The notes beneath the pieces were generated by a model. The model saw only the letters and a list, made by a program, of their open reading frames with translations. It ran no database searches and was not told the DNA's origin. A DNA stretch of 11,988 bases, taken from IMG/VR virus record IMGVR_UViG_2974794945_000001, positions 293,273 through 305,260 of that record. The stretch is one strand, 5' to 3'. Of the stretch, positions 1,055 through 3,910 are shown piece by piece (within the stretch, counting starts at the first letter, position 1; each line of letters begins with the position of its first letter). A program made the translations under genes and the position numbers. The stretch is from a virus (lineage: Duplodnaviria > Heunggongvirae > Uroviricota > Caudoviricetes).

Positions 1055-1621
1055 CTATTGGGTTTGGACACTTACCGATACACCACCGGATGCGGTGAAT
1101 CTAGTAAAGCGGGGTTTGATTTCTATTCCGTACTGCTTACACCATTTACGCACTGAGTTATCTGATACACCATATTTCTCTCCAACCTTTACCATGGACA
1201 TTATTAACATGTCTGCTTCTAGTTGTTCTTTATCTGGACGTTCTACTTTTCTTCGACCCAAAGCAGAACATTCCGAACTGCAATATACATCAAGATCTTT
1301 ACTAAGTACACACTGACATTGTTCACAAAGTTTAGTTGGATATTGTTTTGGGTCAATACCCATACGGCGCATCCAACCATGCAGCTTTTGGTGTTGTGAT
1401 TGCGTAAGTACTAATAAATTTTCAGGGTGATTATTCATTTTGTTTTCGTCTAGATGATGTACCTCTTCATCTTTAGCCAACGGACGACCCATGAACTCTT
1501 CTGCTACCACGCGATGCTCATATACCCAGCCATACATCTTTGGATTCATTAAAGCATGTAAATGATCAGGTAGGTGTAGAGCAATGTACCCATTAATAAC
1601 TTTTTGTTTGATCTTTTCCAT
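1055..1621 (-). CDS. Free-standing HNH (HNH_3-type) homing endonuclease with C-terminal Zn ribbon and HTH
   Basis: YEHRVVAE...EEVHHLDENKMNNHPENLLVLTQSQHQKLH HNH motif; CEQC...CSSEC Cys cluster; MVKVGEKYGVSDNSVRKWCKQYGI HTH; GGGAG SD 6 nt before the ATG. Confidence 0.88.
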   Translation of the reverse strand: MEKIKQKVINGYIALHLPDHLHALMNPKMYGWVYEHRVVAEEFMGRPLAKDEEVHHLDENKMNNHPENLLVLTQSQHQKLHGWMRRMGIDPKQYPTKLCEQCQCVLSKDLDVYCSSECSALGRRKVERPDKEQLEADMLIMSMVKVGEKYGVSDNSVRKWCKQYGIEIKPRFTRFTASGGVSVSVQTQ

Positions 1622-1653
1622 TTACGTCTCCCGTCCATGGTTCGAATAGATAT

Positions 1654-1684
1654 AACGAAATAATGGAAGCCGAAGCTTCCATTA
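1654..1684 (-). terminator. Intrinsic terminator at the end of the tRNA cluster
   Basis: Minus strand TAATGGAAGC-TTCG-GCTTCCATTA: 10-bp stem with a cUUCGg loop, followed by TTTCGTT. Confidence 0.75.
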
Positions 1685-1689
1685 GAAAT

Positions 1690-1777
1690 TGGCTGGTAAG
1701 GCTGGACTCGAACCAGCGGTGTGCTTTCGCAAACGGATTAACAGTCCGCCCCCTGCTACCAACTCGGGTACTTACCA
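1690..1777 (-). tRNA. tRNA-Asn(GTT) with a long variable arm, CCA encoded
   Basis: TGGTAAG/CTTACCA acceptor, G73, CCA; GCGGA-CTGTTAA-TCCGT anticodon arm; GCTGG-TTCGAGT-CCAGC T arm; TGC-GAAA-GCA variable hairpin. Confidence 0.9.
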
Positions 1778-1789
1778 ATTTTAAAACGT

Positions 1790-1824
1790 ATCGGCAATGA
1801 CTCTACCAACTGAGCTATTTACCA
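1790..1824 (-). pseudogene. Isolated 5' half of a tRNA (acceptor 5' strand, D-arm, start of anticodon arm)
   Basis: TGGTAAA-TA-GCTC-AGTTGGTA-GAGT-C-ATTGC... I found no complementary GCAAT, T-arm or TTTACCA nearby. Confidence 0.65.
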
Positions 1825-1844
1825 ATGTATCGACAGTTCTTCAT

Positions 1845-1871
1845 GTATACTATTACACATCAAGTACTTTT
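1845..1871 (-). promoter_or_regulatory. Repeated phage promoter-like motif AAAAGTAC-TTGATGTGTAATAGTATAC
   Basis: One of four similar copies (1845-1871, 2951-2979, 3967-3991, 6370-6394), each upstream of a minus-strand gene or RNA. Resembles the phiKZ middle (AAanntTAC) and late (TATG) elements. Confidence 0.6.
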
Positions 1872-1957
1872 AATCTGTATTGGGATGCCAGGCTTCCACT
1901 GGATGATTGTTTTACCTAGACTCCCTTTAAAGATCTAGCAATGCTTGAAACTATTAC

Positions 1958-2067
1958 CTCAACAGTTCCCTAGTTACTGATTACCCTGCGCGCCAGGTCG
2001 TACGTTAACTAGGTAGGCGTGGAACGACGCCTCGTTTTAGTTCTGCACCGAAGTGCCTTCTGTTGAG
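1958..2067 (-). ncRNA. Candidate multi-stem structured RNA directly 3' of the tRNA-like element
   Basis: 8-bp closing helix CTCAACAG/CTGTTGAG encloses GCAC-TTCG-GTGC, GGCGT-CGTTCC-ACGCC and CCTAGTTA/TAACTAGG (with inner CCTG/CAGG). No plausible ORF. Confidence 0.5.
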
Positions 2068-2068
2068 C

Positions 2069-2146
2069 AGCCCTCCTTAGATACCGAATCTAAATCTCTC
2101 TATCCGTGGTATGGACAGAGCGCTTTACCGATTAAGCTAGGTGGGC
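2069..2146 (-). ncRNA. tRNA-like RNA or pseudo-tRNA with an extended anticodon stem, no encoded CCA
   Basis: GCCCACC/GGAGGGC acceptor (one A-A mismatch); GCTT-AATCGGTA-AAGC D-arm; CTCTGTCC-ATACCAC-GGATAGAG 8-bp arm; TTAGA-TTCGGTA-TCTAA T-like arm. Confidence 0.65.
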
Positions 2147-2153
2147 ATTGAAT

Positions 2154-2239
2154 TGGTGGATGAAGGAAGGAATTGAACCTCTAGGAGAACCGGCGGGGTT
2201 ACAGGCCGCTGACAGTAGCCATCTGTCTCTACATCATCC
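2154..2239 (-). tRNA. Atypical tRNA-Tyr(GTA), CCA encoded
   Basis: Anticodon loop CT-GTA-AC, A73-CCA, GG-TTCAATT-CC T loop; 8-bp acceptor GGATGATG/CTTCATCC (one T-T); 5-bp D-stem GACAG/CTGTC; C31-C39 mismatch. Confidence 0.7.
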
Positions 2240-2247
2240 GTAAAACA

Positions 2248-2382
2248 TTTGAAACTAACTATGGAGAAAGGCGACTCGTTTTATCTCCTGACTTGTACCC
2301 ATGCACCCATTATTGAATCACCGGGCGGCTCCTTTAGTGTGATTCGGGCTGTACCTTACCGTCGTTGTTAGTTAATTTCAAA
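2248..2382 (-). ncRNA. Candidate structured RNA between tRNA-Pro and tRNA-Tyr
   Basis: 14-bp closing stem TTTGAAATTAACTA/TAGTTAGTTTCAAA, whose one non-Watson-Crick pair is a U-G wobble on the minus strand. Encloses GAATCAC/GTGATTC and GGAGA/TCTCC hairpins. Confidence 0.5.
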
Positions 2383-2384
2383 AC

Positions 2385-2460
2385 TGGTCAGAGTGGGAGG
2401 ACTTGAACCTCCGACCACGTAGTCCCAAACCACGCATTCTACCAACTGAACTACACTCTG
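2385..2460 (-). tRNA. tRNA-Pro(TGG), CCA encoded
   Basis: Canonical 76-nt cloverleaf CAGAGTG...CGTGG-TTTGGGA-CTACG...GGAGG-TTCAAGT-CCTCC-CACTCTG-A-CCA. Confidence 0.97.
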
Positions 2461-2467
2461 ATGAAAC

Positions 2468-2544
2468 TGGCGGTTCCTACGGGACTTGAACCCGTGACCT
2501 CTCGCGTGACAGGCGAGCGCTCTAACCAACTGAGCTAAGGAACC
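2468..2544 (-). tRNA. tRNA-Asp(GTC), CCA encoded
   Basis: Canonical cloverleaf GGTTCCT...CTCGC-CTGTCAC-GCGAG...ACGGG-TTCAAGT-CCCGT-AGGAACC-G-CCA. Confidence 0.97.
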
Positions 2545-2553
2545 TAAAGCATT

Positions 2554-2651
2554 GAGAGTAACGGCGCTTTAACCGATTAAGCTAACGGCCCTGTTGGATA
2601 GGCGGGCCTTCCGAGTCAAGGGATTTGAACCCAAGTACCTCCGTTACTCTC
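2554..2651 (-). ncRNA. Circularly permuted tRNA-like RNA (3' half precedes 5' half)
   Basis: Minus-strand order: GAGAGTAACGG-AGGTA-CTTGGG-TTCAAAT-CCCTTG-ACTCGG-AAGGCCC-G-CC / linker TATCCAACA / GGGCCGT-TA-GCTT-AATCGGTTA-AAGC-G-CCGTTACTCTC. The ends form a perfect 11-bp stem and GGGCCGT pairs with AAGGCCC (6/7). Confidence 0.65.
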
Positions 2652-2655
2652 GAAT

Positions 2656-2823
2656 CTATGCTACTTGCTGTTCACGTTTACTGACCATGTAATCAGCATC
2701 GTTTACAGCTTCCCGAAGTATCTGTTTATCTAGTTTAAGATTCTTCCAACTTAGCCTGCTGCAACAGCGGCAATCTGCTGGACCAAAGTCATCTAAAGGA
2801 CGTGGTTTAATCTTAACTTTCAT
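2656..2823 (-). CDS. 55-aa Cys-containing protein inside the tRNA operon (MKVKIKPRPLDDFGPADCRCCSRLSWKNLKLDKQILREAVNDADYMVSKREQQVA)
   Basis: Manually translated. GGAG SD 6 nt upstream of the ATG; exactly fills the gap between tRNA-His and the permuted element. Confidence 0.7.
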   Translation of the reverse strand: MKVKIKPRPLDDFGPADCRCCSRLSWKNLKLDKQILREAVNDADYMVSKREQQVA

Positions 2824-2844
2824 AGACTACTCCGAGAAAAGAAT

Positions 2845-2922
2845 TGGTGTGAATGAAGAGGATCGAACTCTTGACTTCCAGGGTCACATCCTGGCACTCT
2901 AACCGACTGAGCTACATTCACC
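2845..2922 (-). tRNA. tRNA-His(GTG) with encoded G-1 and A73, CCA encoded
   Basis: G-GTGAATG-TA-GCTC-AGTCGGTTA-GAGT-G-CCAGG-ATGTGAC-CCTGG-AAGTC-AAGAG-TTCGATC-CTCTT-CATTCAC-A-CCA. Confidence 0.93.
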
Positions 2923-2950
2923 ATCAAGCGTCGAGGCAGCAACTGCTCTC

Positions 2951-2979
2951 GTATACTATTACATACCAAGTATTATTTT
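2951..2979 (-). promoter_or_regulatory. Promoter-like motif for the tRNA operon, AAAATAATAC-TTGGTATGTAATAGTATAC
   Basis: Copy of the repeated motif, 28 nt upstream of tRNA-His. Confidence 0.6.
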
Positions 2980-3058
2980 ACATTGGGTCAAAACTCTTGC
3001 AGCTGGACCTGCACTATTGCGCCAGTCCAACCACATATAGTTGTATACAATCAACTAC

Positions 3059-3910
3059 TTAACCGATAAACACAATCTTAGTGTTTACTCGACCCAGTTT
3101 GGCTAACACTCGGTAGAGACGATTAATGTTGATGTCGTCACTATTAATACGCTTAGCAGCATTAGTGATAATCAGTGTATGAAAGTTAGTATGGAACTGT
3201 GGGAAGTTAGCTAGCAAATGATCATTCAACCATTTCGATTCCCAAAACCATTTACGATGGGTAACTAATTTTTCACCATCGTTACTGCTGGTCATGATGC
3301 TAATTTCCGCTGATGGATCAGCCGCCATATACGCCAATGCTTCTCGAACATTAAAGTGTTGACACAGTTGATCTTCAATGAGTTGCTTAGCTTCATTGTC
3401 CAACGCCAGCAATTTAAACAACACCGACCATGAACATTGATCAATACGTGAATGGATGTCATCGTGATCAAAATGCACAAACCCACGACCTAGCGTTTGT
3501 TTGAATGCATTAACAAAAGTAGTTACGTTACCCAATGCCGGTCCATTTAAAAACGAAGTATTGTCACGAACGCGTTTCCAATCGGGTACATCGCCTTCTA
3601 ACAAATCCAAGTTATTTGCTTTTTGGATTATGCGTGCCATTTCCTTAGCAATGATTTCCGTAGGTTCATCTGTATCCAGTTCCGCTGTATCCAATGCTTC
3701 CTCAGTAAACCAGTAATGCAATGCATCATACCGTTTAAGAGTAAACTGTGAGATCACCTCACTAACTACCGGTACGTCTTCGCACAGGTGCTGTAGGCCC
3801 GTTGGGCTATTTTTACCATTACCAAAAACATAAGTTTCTAGTGGTTTATATTTCAAAGGTAACAAATCCCTAGGGTTTTCTATTCTTGCGGTCATTGCTG
3901 CTATGTTCAT
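3059..3910 (-). CDS. Hypothetical protein, 283 aa
   Basis: Long ORF co-oriented with its neighbours and preceded by a promoter-like motif. No family recognised. Confidence 0.85.
   Translation of the reverse strand: MNIAAMTARIENPRDLLPLKYKPLETYVFGNGKNSPTGLQHLCEDVPVVSEVISQFTLKRYDALHYWFTEEALDTAELDTDEPTEIIAKEMARIIQKANNLDLLEGDVPDWKRVRDNTSFLNGPALGNVTTFVNAFKQTLGRGFVHFDHDDIHSRIDQCSWSVLFKLLALDNEAKQLIEDQLCQHFNVREALAYMAADPSAEISIMTSSNDGEKLVTHRKWFWESKWLNDHLLANFPQFHTNFHTLIITNAAKRINSDDININRLYRVLAKLGRVNTKIVFIG

What the first reader, a model, noticed from the sequence alone, without database searches (positions are those of the whole stretch)
1654..2979. A hybrid tRNA operon: real tRNAs interleaved with tRNA mimics and structured RNAs, a possible anti-defence RNA module
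Seen: between a promoter motif (2951-2979) and a terminator (1654-1684) lie five tRNAs, a permuted tRNA-like RNA, an anticodon-extended tRNA-like RNA, a 5' tRNA half, two ~110-135 nt multi-stem RNAs and one 55-aa ORF, with very little unstructured spacer. The odd elements keep complementary stems, in places with minus-strand G-U pairs, which fits selection at the RNA level better than simple decay. Established: hosts use anticodon nucleases (PrrC, RloC, PARIS AriB) against phages, phage tRNAs can rescue this, and T4's tRNA cluster encodes stable RNAs of unknown function. Inference: RNase P and 3' trimming at flanking tRNAs would release a set of tRNA-shaped decoys or inhibitors alongside replacement tRNAs.
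Basis: partly seen in the sequence, partly recalled or inferred. Interest (0 to 1): 0.75.

Follow-up and report, generated by a model that had tools for sequence, protein, structure and literature searches.

The report
Phage tRNA operon carrying undescribed RNAs
A giant Pseudomonas phage's tRNA gene cluster also encodes at least four conserved, folded non-coding RNA families (two shaped like tRNA) that recur beside tRNA genes in many unrelated phages, match no catalogued RNA family, and have no known function.

Summary
On the minus strand of 1654-2979 lie two conserved phage promoter motifs, one terminator, four ordinary tRNAs (His, Asp, Pro, Asn), a deviant tRNA-Tyr-like gene (E3), a 55-aa gene, and four non-decoding structured RNAs. 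These are E1 (a permuted tRNA mimic), E2, and E4 fused to E5 with its tail E6. A 5' tRNA half (E7) is also present.

The genome matches phiPsa21 in length (305,260 bp), a nucleus-forming Pseudomonas syringae jumbo phage.

E1, E2, E3 and E5 each recur in tRNA clusters of unrelated phages, in shuffled order. Each shows strong compensatory base-pair changes; none of 500 shuffles reached the observed covariation score. None reaches an Rfam 15 threshold.

E3 keeps an invariant GUA anticodon loop, A73 and CCA, so it is probably a working tRNA-Tyr. E1 has the layout of bacterial YrlA Y RNAs, but the phage has no Ro60 gene. E4 keeps the acceptor, D and T arms, but its "anticodon" arm is a variable hairpin, which argues against a simple anticodon-nuclease decoy. 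E7 is best read as a relic of a replaced tRNA-Asn gene.

RNA-level selection is therefore shown. The anti-defence role remains untested inference.

Earlier scan notes flagged E5 look-alikes and other undescribed RNAs next to phage tRNAs on other DNA.

The parts
2951..2979 (-). Promoter motif P1: an A-rich run, then TACT, then about 20 nt ending in GTATAC.
   Evidence: The 13-mer core occurs 3 times in the genome, each before a tRNA cluster. It is conserved in D6 and RVTF4 and phiKZ/PA1C. It fits the published phiKZ middle-promoter description of an A-rich repeat plus TACT about 22 nt before the TSS (PMC8244752). No transcript data exist for this phage.
2845..2921 (-). tRNA-His (GUG), CCA encoded.
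   Evidence: ARAGORN; Rfam tRNA 66.6 bits.
2656..2823 (-). 55-aa protein gene (ORF55) with invariant C18, C20, C21 and W26.
   Evidence: 18 homologous protein clusters of 52-57 aa. It is 73% identical to the RVTF4 copy. In the four other contigs examined (L352, L354, L355, L356) the gene sits inside a tRNA cluster. No Pfam or PHROG family matches. The AlphaFold model is poor, pLDDT 67.
2545..2662 (-). E1: circularly permuted tRNA mimic. In order it has a long closing stem, a T-arm, a closed acceptor-like hairpin, a D-arm, and the closing stem again.
   Evidence: 16 matches of 36 bits or more in phage records and IMG/VR contigs. 20 of 26 pairs show changes on both sides, and 0/500 shuffles reach the observed score. 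The closing stem differs in every copy. The weak Rfam YrlA match is 20.5 bits against a threshold of 69.
2468..2544 (-). tRNA-Asp (GUC).
   Evidence: 74.3 bits.
2385..2460 (-). tRNA-Pro (UGG).
   Evidence: 64.9 bits.
2247..2384 (-). E2: ~135-nt structured RNA with a closing stem, two covarying hairpins and long invariant unpaired stretches.
   Evidence: 12 distinct copies in Pseudomonas, Erwinia and Vibrio phages and IMG/VR contigs, beside tRNA genes in every annotated record examined. 14 of 21 pairs are compensatory, 0/500 shuffles. No Rfam match at E<=10.
2154..2239 (-). E3: deviant tRNA-Tyr-like gene. It has an 8-bp acceptor stem with U-U mismatches, a 5-bp D stem, a short variable arm and a 4-bp T stem. 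The loop CUGUAA(C/A) is invariant, and A73 and CCA are present.
   Evidence: 208 phage records, nearly all Pseudomonas phages. 14 distinct sequences give 12 of 25 compensatory pairs, 0/500 shuffles on the covariation score, and an invariant anticodon loop. It occupies the position held by a canonical tRNA-Tyr in D6 (after E2) and in L352/L354 (before ORF55).
2069..2146 (-). E4: tRNA-like domain with acceptor, D and T arms and an 8-bp 'anticodon' stem. It has no CCA and is fused to E5.
   Evidence: In at least 15 of 20 E5 copies a T-arm and acceptor strand end 2-3 nt before E5. The 'anticodon' arm differs in length and loop, and ARAGORN's anticodon calls disagree or fail.
1958..2067 (-). E5: 110-nt four-way-junction RNA with many invariant unpaired bases, including UAAAACGAGGCG, ACG..CGAC and GGUAAUCAG.
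   Evidence: 20 distinct copies on a structure-blind MAFFT alignment. 98% of cells are paired, 21 of 29 pairs are compensatory, 0/500 shuffles. Folding z-score is -3.8. No Rfam match.
1874..1956 (-). E6: 3' extension of E5 with two hairpins.
   Evidence: It is conserved in D6 and L014, with compensatory changes in the first hairpin seen by eye. Single-sequence folding is weak, z -1.4. This is the least certain part.
1845..1873 (-). Promoter motif P2, the second copy.
   Evidence: The equivalent motif stands before tRNA-Asn in RVTF4, phiKZ and PA1C.
1793..1823 (-). E7: 5' tRNA half (acceptor 5' strand plus D-arm) within the leader of tRNA-Asn.
   Evidence: In phiKZ and PA1C the same position holds the 5' half of a canonical tRNA-Asn, running through the anticodon (..GACUGUUA in phiKZ..GACUG in PA1C). 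There is no folding signal, z -0.4.
1690..1777 (-). tRNA-Asn (GUU) with an unusual long variable arm.
   Evidence: 52.2 bits. It is conserved in phiKZ-group phages.
1654..1684 (-). Intrinsic terminator.
   Evidence: A 10-bp stem with a UUCG loop and a T-run. It is conserved in phiKZ and PA1C with compensatory changes.
1055..1621 (-). HNH endonuclease gene just downstream (context).
   Evidence: Pfam HNH_3, E 8.5e-12; phrog_15471. phiKZ has an HNH gene in the same position after its tRNA-Asn.

Best explanation
The stretch is two adjacent transcription units, probably driven by the phage's own middle-type promoters and ending at one shared terminator.

They encode:
(a) Five decoding tRNAs: His, Asp, Pro, Asn and a structurally deviant but constrained tRNA-Tyr (E3). 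These include all four GUN-anticodon (queuosine-family) tRNAs.
(b) A small conserved protein that lives in tRNA clusters.
(c) Non-decoding structured RNAs from at least three undescribed families: E1, a YrlA-like permuted tRNA mimic; E2; and the composite E4-E5(-E6), in which a tRNA-like domain without a usable anticodon or CCA is fused to a highly conserved four-way-junction RNA.

Each RNA is an independent, horizontally shuffled module of phage tRNA clusters.

Inferred mechanism:
- RNase P cuts at the 5' ends of the tRNAs and of the tRNA-like E4.
- 3' trimming then releases the modules as compact stable RNAs sealed by long terminal helices.
- The tRNA-like parts serve as processing and stability handles, and as surfaces for proteins that read the tRNA elbow.
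- The invariant unpaired cores of E1, E2 and E5 bind a protein, RNA or small molecule in trans during infection, most likely within the contest over tRNA supply and integrity.

E7 is a relic, not a module.

Shown here: the parts, their conservation, their RNA-level constraint and their tRNA-cluster context.
Inferred: transcription, processing, accumulation and any role in trans.
For: Parts and boundaries.

Promoter motif: three genome copies, all before tRNA clusters. It is conserved in D6, RVTF4, phiKZ and PA1C. It matches the described phiKZ middle-promoter features. The tRNA-Leu of 201phi2-1 is transcribed from a middle promoter (PMC11512511).

RNA-level selection:
- E3: 12/25 compensatory pairs.
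- E1: 20/26 (that alignment is fitted to the model, but the closing stem is visibly different and complementary in every copy).
- E5: 21/29, with 98% of cells paired on a MAFFT alignment.
- E2: 14/21.
- In all four cases 0/500 shuffles reach the observed covariation score, and all slid controls are far lower.

Modularity: the order differs in D6 (His-Asp-E2-Tyr-Pro-E4-E5-E6-Asn-Asn) and RVTF4 (E1-E3-ORF-Asp-Pro-Asn). Two or more of the families co-occur in contigs of about 50 to 317 kb.

tRNA context elsewhere.

E3 as a real tRNA-Tyr: invariant GUA loop, A73, G1-C72 and CCA; positional replacement of a canonical tRNA-Tyr; no other tRNA-Tyr found in the genome.

E4 fused to E5 without CCA in at least 15 of 20 copies.

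E1 layout: it equals YrlA's T-arm, acceptor-like stem-loop and D-arm between a terminal stem (PMC4201824).

Nearby tRNA-repair gene: RtcB at genome 284881-286032.
Against: - No expression, end-mapping or stability data exist for this phage or for any homologue of E1, E2, E4 or E5.
- phiKZ, the only close model with deep RNA maps, lacks these families.
- No binding partner is identified. RtcB is absent from four of the five other E1-bearing phages tested, and the phage has no Ro60 gene.
- E3's T stem shows no covariation and carries non-pairs, and its single-sequence folding is no better than shuffles. Aminoacylation is not assured.
- The GUN tRNA set can also be explained by codon supply in a 43% GC phage on a GC-rich host.
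- E6 rests on three sequences.
Confidence: 0.55

Rival explanations
1. The tRNA-shaped and structured RNAs are decoys or inhibitors that soak up host anticodon nucleases (PrrC, RloC, PARIS AriB, colicin-E5-like enzymes), while the real tRNAs replace the cleaved ones.
For: - The cluster supplies all four UGU-loop (GUN) tRNAs. These are exactly the colicin E5 substrate set (PMC1635277).
- Phage tRNAs are known to counter tRNA-targeting defences (PMC10264068, PMC11464382).
- RtcB is encoded 8 kb away.
- One E1- and ORF55-bearing contig carries an Acb2/Tad1-like gene 1.3 kb from the cluster.
Against: - E4's anticodon arm is not conserved in length or loop.
- E1 has free ends where the anticodon loop would be. 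Neither element presents a defined anticodon loop.
- E2 and E5 are not tRNA-shaped.
- No nuclease or defence gene is linked to any of the families in the loci examined.
Confidence: 0.15
2. E5, and perhaps E2, are self-processing RNAs (undescribed ribozymes). They would define RNA ends in the polycistronic transcript. For example, E5 could cut at its own 5' edge to make the 3' end of the CCA-less tRNA-like E4.
For: - Many invariant unpaired nucleotides sit in junctions and internal loops, flanked by freely covarying helices.
- The junction is fixed at 2-3 nt, with a nearly invariant GC between E4's acceptor strand and E5's first helix.
- E2 and E5 share the motifs UAAAACGAG and ACGAC...GGUAA, but in opposite order.
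- A twister ribozyme lies 1.4 kb from an E5-like motif in one contig.
Against: - There is no similarity to any Rfam ribozyme, even at E<=10.
- No catalytic motif can be named.
- The same sequence features fit protein- or ligand-binding RNAs equally well.
- The twister neighbour is a single case.
Confidence: 0.12
3. The odd elements are decaying tRNA pseudogenes and neutral spacer hairpins left by recombination and homing-endonuclease traffic in the tRNA region. They have no function of their own.
For: - E7 fits this reading. It is a truncated tRNA-Asn 5' half with no folding signal. It sits beside a variant tRNA-Asn and an HNH endonuclease gene, as in phiKZ and PA1C.
- HNH genes are common in these clusters.
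Against: - E1, E2, E3 and E5 are kept in unrelated phages of different hosts. They have invariant cores and compensatory stem changes well beyond the controls.
- Pseudogenes would not preserve pairing while changing both strands.
Confidence: 0.05

Closest known systems
YrlA (Y RNA-like A) of bacteria and mycobacteriophages, Rfam RF02553 (Chen et al. 2014, PMC4201824)
   Same: E1 has the same permuted cloverleaf. A terminal stem carries both ends, followed by a variable region, a T-arm, a closed acceptor-like stem-loop and a D-arm. Like M. smegmatis YrlA, which is cut by RNase P and receives CCA, E1 keeps an invariant G-C-C right after the acceptor-like 3' strand.
   Different: E1 scores 20.5 bits against a threshold of 69. 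The phage has no Ro60/TROVE gene. The terminal stem has no conserved Ro-binding sequence and differs in every copy. E1's most conserved part is the acceptor-like hairpin and the linker before it. E1 always lies in a tRNA cluster, not next to rsr.
Phage T4 stable RNAs rnaC and rnaD (species 1 and 2), and T5 'RNA1', in phage tRNA clusters
   Same: They are compact non-coding RNAs of about 110-140 nt. They are encoded between or after tRNA genes, presumably released by tRNA processing, and their function has been unknown for decades.
   Different: I saw no shared motif when reading the T4 rnaC/rnaD sequences; this was inspection only, with no alignment run. E2 and E5 belong to other families, found in Pseudomonas, Erwinia and Vibrio phages.
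8/4 and 9/3 'allo-tRNA' / tRNA-Sec-like tRNAs (Mukai et al. 2016, PMC5389517)
   Same: E3 has an 8-bp acceptor stem, a 4-bp T stem and an extended D stem. Its best Rfam match is the tRNA-Sec model. 8/4 tRNAs occur in phage tRNA clusters.
   Different: The described phage 8/4 species are tRNA-Ser and tRNA-His. E3 carries GUA (Tyr), A73 and only a 2-3-bp variable arm, and it has conserved U-U mismatches in the acceptor stem.
GOLLD and ROOL large ornate RNAs; engineered tRNA scaffolds
   Same: GOLLD and ROOL are structured RNAs of phages and prophages that sit next to tRNA genes (from my own knowledge). E4-E5 resembles a natural version of a tRNA scaffold carrying a passenger RNA.
   Different: There is no Rfam match to GOLLD or ROOL. 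E2 and E5 are five to seven times smaller.

Membership tests
YrlA / bacterial Y RNA (for E1) | Reaches the Rfam RF02553 gathering score | tested here: not met
   20.5 bits against 69, E 0.27.
YrlA / bacterial Y RNA (for E1) | Permuted tRNA-like module: T-arm, acceptor-like stem-loop and D-arm enclosed by a terminal stem | tested here: met
   Alignments and covariation. The layout matches the one described in PMC4201824.
YrlA / bacterial Y RNA (for E1) | Encoded next to, or together with, a Ro60 (TROVE) gene | tested here: not met
   No PF05731 match in the 305-kb phage genome, while the control genomes do match. The host genome was not searchable.
YrlA / bacterial Y RNA (for E1) | Conserved Ro-binding helix in the terminal stem | tested here: not met
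   The terminal stem sequence differs completely between copies.
Transfer RNA, decoding (for E3) | Cloverleaf helices kept by covariation, a 7-nt anticodon loop with U33, and a 3' CCA | tested here: met
   The acceptor, D and anticodon stems covary. The loop CUGUAA(C/A) is invariant, and ACCA is encoded.
Transfer RNA, decoding (for E3) | Recognised by standard tRNA models | tested here: not met
   ARAGORN does not call it. The best Rfam match is tRNA-Sec at 22.8 bits against 47. A few GenBank records label homologues tRNA-Tyr, Val or Trp.
Transfer RNA, decoding (for E3) | Aminoacylation and use on the ribosome | not testable with these tools
   Needs charging assays or tRNA-seq.
Transfer RNA, decoding (for E4) | Conserved 7-nt anticodon loop on a 5-bp stem, plus CCA or a processable 3' end | tested here: not met
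   The stem is 5-11 bp and the loop 3-14 nt, with no conserved sequence. There is no CCA, and the 3' side runs straight into E5.
Known self-cleaving ribozymes and other Rfam families (for E2 and E5) | Match to a curated covariance model | tested here: not met
   No match at E<=10 over 1500-3150. No family overlaps the motif in the 15 related loci scanned.
T4 rnaC/rnaD-type stable RNAs of phage tRNA clusters (for E2 and E5) | Encoded within a phage tRNA cluster, non-coding and compactly folded | tested here: met
T4 rnaC/rnaD-type stable RNAs of phage tRNA clusters (for E2 and E5) | Accumulates as a stable processed RNA in infected cells | not testable with these tools
   No transcriptome of phiPsa21 or of any phage carrying these families was found.
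T4 rnaC/rnaD-type stable RNAs of phage tRNA clusters (for E2 and E5) | Sequence homology to T4 rnaC or rnaD | tested here: inconclusive
   I saw no shared motif on reading the T4 sequences; no alignment or search was run.

The most novel reading that the evidence does not exclude
E4-E5 and E2 represent a new functional class: tRNA-scaffolded effector RNAs of phages. Either they form a new self-cleaving ribozyme class that makes its own ends next to tRNA-like handles, or they are RNA inhibitors of a host tRNA-directed defence or repair enzyme. Under this reading, E1 is a Ro60-independent Y-RNA-like tRNA mimic belonging to the same toolkit.
Probability: 0.15. Interest if true: 0.85.

Novelty: new variant of a known kind. 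Interest (0 to 1): 0.66.

Why it matters
Phage tRNA clusters are usually annotated as lists of tRNAs separated by "spacers". Here most of the spacer is made of separate RNA genes that are as strongly constrained as the tRNAs. They are shared by unrelated phages of Pseudomonas, Erwinia, Vibrio, Cronobacter and uncultured hosts.

This gives three or four well-defined RNA families with clear alignments, ready for structural and genetic work. It extends tRNA mimicry of the YrlA type to phages that lack Ro60. It adds a probable 8/4-type tRNA-Tyr that standard tools miss, present in about 200 Pseudomonas phage records, many from phages of P. aeruginosa.

If the RNAs act on tRNA-targeting defences or on tRNA processing, they would be a new layer of phage counter-defence made of RNA. 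It would also bear on the fifty-year-old question of what the T4-type stable RNAs do.

Tried and rejected
- **Rfam, window:** gathering and E<=10 scans found only the four canonical tRNAs, plus weak YrlA, tRNA-Sec and tRNA hits on E1, E3 and E4.
- **Rfam, related loci:** 15 loci with the E5-type motif gave nothing over the motif.
- **Syntenic relatives:** a search of IMG/VR with the upstream 283-aa protein found none.
- **First E1 pattern:** it was too strict and found nothing.
- **E1 16-mer in bacterial genomes:** more than 120 hits, but all lack the flanking arms. About 280 hits are expected by chance, so there is no evidence of E1 in bacterial genomes.
- **Ro60 in the phage:** absent.
- **RtcB linkage to E1:** rejected as obligatory. 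RtcB is present in this genome and in pf16, but absent from GAP31, Astolliot, Peetri and PhiPA3.
- **T4 rnaC/rnaD:** no shared motif seen on reading the sequences.
- **phiKZ:** it lacks E1, E2, E3 and E5, and its published ~100-nt ncRNA between genes 298 and 297 is unrelated.
- **Pseudoknots:** AAAGG/CCUUU in E2 and loop GUUCC/GGAAC in E5 are not supported by the homologues on inspection.
- **ORF55:** no Pfam or PHROG family. The AlphaFold model is too poor for a fold search, pLDDT 67.
- **Host Ro60:** the host genome could not be searched.


Full report
**Where the window comes from.** The window is the last 12 kb of a 305,260-bp virus record. Its ribonucleotide reductase genes and tRNA region are most similar to Pseudomonas jumbo phages RVTF4, D6, 201phi2-1 and the phiKZ group. 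The record length equals that published for phiPsa21, a jumbo phage of P. syringae pv. actinidiae with eight annotated tRNAs (PMC6544186). D6 is described as the closest relative of Psa21 (PMC11139720). Everything discussed here is on the minus strand.

**What is there.** Reading from 2979 down to 1654:
- Promoter motif P1.
- tRNA-His.
- A 55-aa ORF with a GGAG ribosome-binding site.
- E1, 2545-2662.
- tRNA-Asp.
- tRNA-Pro.
- E2, 2247-2384.
- E3, 2154-2239.
- E4, 2069-2146.
- E5, 1958-2067.
- E6, 1874-1956.
- A second promoter motif P2, ~1845-1873.
- E7, a 5' tRNA half at ~1793-1823.
- tRNA-Asn.
- A terminator at 1684-1661 plus a T-run.

ARAGORN and Rfam agree on His, Asp, Pro and Asn. ARAGORN calls E4 "tRNA-Gly(acc)", but Rfam gives it only 19.5 bits. 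E3 is not called by ARAGORN, and its best Rfam match is tRNA-Sec at 22.8 bits. E1 weakly matches YrlA at 20.5 bits.

The one correction is the internal promoter.

**Promoters.** The 13-mer core of the motif occurs three times in the genome. Two copies are here and one is in front of the neighbouring tRNA-Trp/Ser cluster. Near-identical motifs precede the tRNA operons of D6 and RVTF4 and the tRNA-Asn of phiKZ and PA1C.

The motif is an A-rich run, then TACT, then about 20 nt. This is how the phiKZ middle-promoter motif is described: TACT centred 22 nt upstream of the TSS, preceded by an A-rich repeat (PMC8244752). In 201phi2-1 a tRNA is transcribed from a middle promoter (PMC11512511). Transcription by the phage's non-virion RNA polymerase is thus a reasonable inference, not a measurement.

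**The odd elements are conserved modules.**
- D6 has the order His-Asp-E2-Tyr(canonical)-Pro-E4-E5-E6-Asn-Asn.
- RVTF4 has P1-E1-E3-ORF-Asp-Pro-P2-Asn.

Beyond these relatives:
- E1 is found in Astolliot, Milchi, pf16, Peetri, PhiPA3, the Cronobacter phage GAP31, the Enterobacter phage EC152 and several IMG/VR contigs.
- E2 is found in HPP-Temi, an Erwinia jumbo phage, a 48-kb Vibrio phage and ten IMG/VR contigs.
- E5 is found in 47-kb Vibrio phages, phage TPWB-08 and many IMG/VR contigs.
- E3 is found in 208 phage records, nearly all Pseudomonas phages of several unrelated genera.

In almost every annotated record examined the elements lie between or beside tRNA genes. The exceptions are Vibrio phage 1.106.O (E5) and Peetri (E1), where no tRNA is annotated near the element. 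Two to four of the families co-occur, often in the same relative order, in contigs of about 50 to 317 kb.

**Covariation.**
- E3: on a MAFFT alignment of 14 distinct sequences, 12 of 25 pairs change on both sides while staying paired. The acceptor, D and anticodon stems all covary, and the loop CUGUAA(C/A) never changes.
- E5: on a MAFFT alignment of 20 distinct sequences, 98% of cells are paired and 21 of 29 pairs are compensatory. One hairpin and about 45 unpaired positions are invariant.
- E2: 14 of 21 pairs are compensatory, and one homologue carries an extra inserted hairpin.
- E1: 20 of 26 pairs are compensatory on a model-fitted alignment. Independently of that fit, the 7- to 18-bp closing helix is made of different complementary sequences in each of ten copies.

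In all four cases none of 500 column shuffles reached the observed covariation score, and sliding the 3' partners collapsed the signal. These controls do not fully correct for phylogeny, but the effect sizes are large.

Single-sequence folding is significantly better than shuffles for E5, E4, E1 and E2. It is not for E3 or E7.

**E1.** Its order of parts is a terminal stem, a short GAG/CUC helix and variable region, a T-arm, an eight-base invariant linker (CUCGGAA), a closed GGCCC/GGGCC hairpin, a D-arm, and the terminal stem again. [quoted passage not shown]

The bases G-C-C directly after the acceptor-like 3' strand are invariant, and the loop that follows varies in length. This parallels M. 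smegmatis YrlA, which RNase P cuts and which then receives CCA. It suggests similar processing, but that is only an inference.

E1 fails the other YrlA criteria. The Rfam score is far below threshold. The phage has no Ro60/TROVE gene. The terminal stem has no conserved sequence.

In Salmonella the Y RNAs are co-transcribed with RtcB. That ligase is encoded 8 kb away in this genome and also in pf16, but not in four other E1-bearing phages. E1's invariant 16-mer was not found in a meaningful context in 185,579 bacterial species genomes.

**E3.** It has an 8-bp acceptor stem (with one always-unpaired U-U and one often-unpaired position), a 5-bp D stem with the loop AUGGCUA, a 5-bp anticodon stem, a 2-3-bp variable arm and a 4-bp T stem. 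This is an 8/4 tRNA-Sec-like body. Such bodies are known in phages for tRNA-Ser and tRNA-His (PMC5389517), not for Tyr.

From general knowledge of TyrRS identity elements, E3 keeps the features bacterial TyrRS reads: GUA, A73 and G1-C72. It sits where D6 and other contigs have a canonical tRNA-Tyr, and the genome has no other tRNA-Tyr. I therefore read it as a working tRNA-Tyr, with a probability of about 0.6.

With E3 counted, the cluster supplies His, Asp, Asn and Tyr. All have U33-G34-U35, which is the substrate set of colicin E5-type tRNases (PMC1635277). That is compatible with replacement of cleaved tRNAs, but also with plain codon supply.

**E4-E5.** In at least 15 of the 20 distinct E5 copies, a T-arm and an acceptor 3' strand end two or three bases before E5's first helix. 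There is a nearly invariant G-C at the junction and never a CCA.

The acceptor stems covary. The D-arm carries the same AGCUUA...AAGC signature as E1. The "anticodon" arm ranges from a 5-bp stem with a 3-nt loop to an 11-bp stem, and ARAGORN's anticodon calls disagree or fail.

E4 is thus a non-decoding tRNA-like handle for E5, and it cannot mimic a particular anticodon loop. This is the main evidence against the decoy idea in its simple form.

E5's motif UAAAACGAGGCG-loop-CGCCUA also occurs in more than 120 IMG/VR contigs within other RNA architectures. One example lies in the late region of lambdoid phages. None of these is in Rfam.

E2 shares UAAAACGAG and ACGAC..GGUAA with E5, but in the opposite order. 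That hints at a common core.

**E7 and tRNA-Asn.** In phiKZ and PA1C the position of E7 holds the 5' half of a canonical tRNA-Asn that stops at the anticodon. It is followed by the same variant tRNA-Asn with a long variable arm, the terminator and an HNH endonuclease gene. This window also has an HNH gene there.

The simplest reading is that a cassette carrying the variant tRNA-Asn, perhaps together with the neighbouring HNH gene, displaced the 3' part of an older tRNA-Asn gene. E7 is the leftover, now part of the 5' leader.

**ORF55.** It is a real gene. There are 18 homologous clusters with invariant Cys-x-Cys-Cys and Trp. In the four other contigs examined it is embedded in a tRNA cluster, next to tRNA-Tyr and tRNA-Asn in three of them. 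Its function is unknown, and the structure prediction was not usable.

**Verdict.**
- RNA-level selection on E1, E2, E3 and E5 is shown.
- The families are absent from Rfam 15, and I found no description of them in the literature searched.
- The function is not known. My preferred model is given at about 0.55 overall: co-transcription, release by tRNA processing, and action in trans as stable RNAs on tRNA-handling factors.
- A specific anticodon-nuclease decoy role is given about 0.15, and a ribozyme role about 0.12.
- Earlier notes of this scan flagged E5 look-alikes in two other genomes and other undescribed RNAs beside phage tRNAs. I used them as leads only.

Noticed in passing
window 1690-1777 (-): The tRNA-Asn (GUU) has a class-II-like body: a long variable arm (UGC-GAAA-GCA) and an unusual D-arm. 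This variant is conserved in the phiKZ group (phiKZ, PA1C, BRkr, phiHQ). RVTF4 and D6 carry an ordinary tRNA-Asn instead. Which synthetase charges the variant is an open question.
   Followed up: partly
L021-L139 (IMG/VR), L027:1990-2180: The module UAAAACGAGGCG-loop-CGCCUA occurs in more than 120 viral contigs within several different larger RNAs. Many sit next to tRNAs or T-arm-like hairpins. One type lies in lambdoid phages (Huey, IME10) and shares its 3' tail with the lambda late region near 44.9 kb. No Rfam family covers it in the 15 loci scanned.
   Followed up: partly
window 1055-1621 (-); L359:2417-2899: An HNH endonuclease gene directly follows the tRNA-Asn and terminator in both this phage and phiKZ. 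This suggests a mobile cassette made of the variant tRNA-Asn plus a homing endonuclease.
   Followed up: partly
L356:3946-4170: A 30-kb contig carries E1 and the ORF55 homologue inside a nine-tRNA cluster. It also has an Acb2/Tad1-hairpin (anti-CBASS/Thoeris sponge-like) gene 1.3 kb downstream.
   Followed up: no
L030:11480-11534: A type-P5 twister ribozyme (58.5 bits) lies about 1.4 kb from an E5-type motif in one viral contig.
   Followed up: no
L007:1540-1632; L006:1552-1806: The GenBank records of HPP-Temi and Erwinia phage pEa_SNUABM_9 annotate 'hypothetical protein' CDSs over their E2 copies. Given the RNA covariation, these are probably mis-annotations.
   Followed up: no
genome G000:C1:284881-286032 (-) and ~292260 (-): An RtcB RNA ligase gene (432 bits) and a third copy of the tRNA promoter motif, in front of tRNA-Trp/Ser, lie just outside the window on the same strand. 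The whole 20-kb end of the record is a tRNA-centred region.
   Followed up: partly
window 2922-2950 (-): The leader after P1 starts with GAGAGCAGUUGCUGCCUC, a small hairpin. Its sequence is conserved in D6 and partly in RVTF4 and at the third promoter. It may mark the transcription start region.
   Followed up: no
L354:2390-2480: In an 85-kb contig, a further tRNA-like element with a long arm lies between the canonical tRNA-Tyr and the ORF55 homologue. It is not one of E1 to E5.
   Followed up: no
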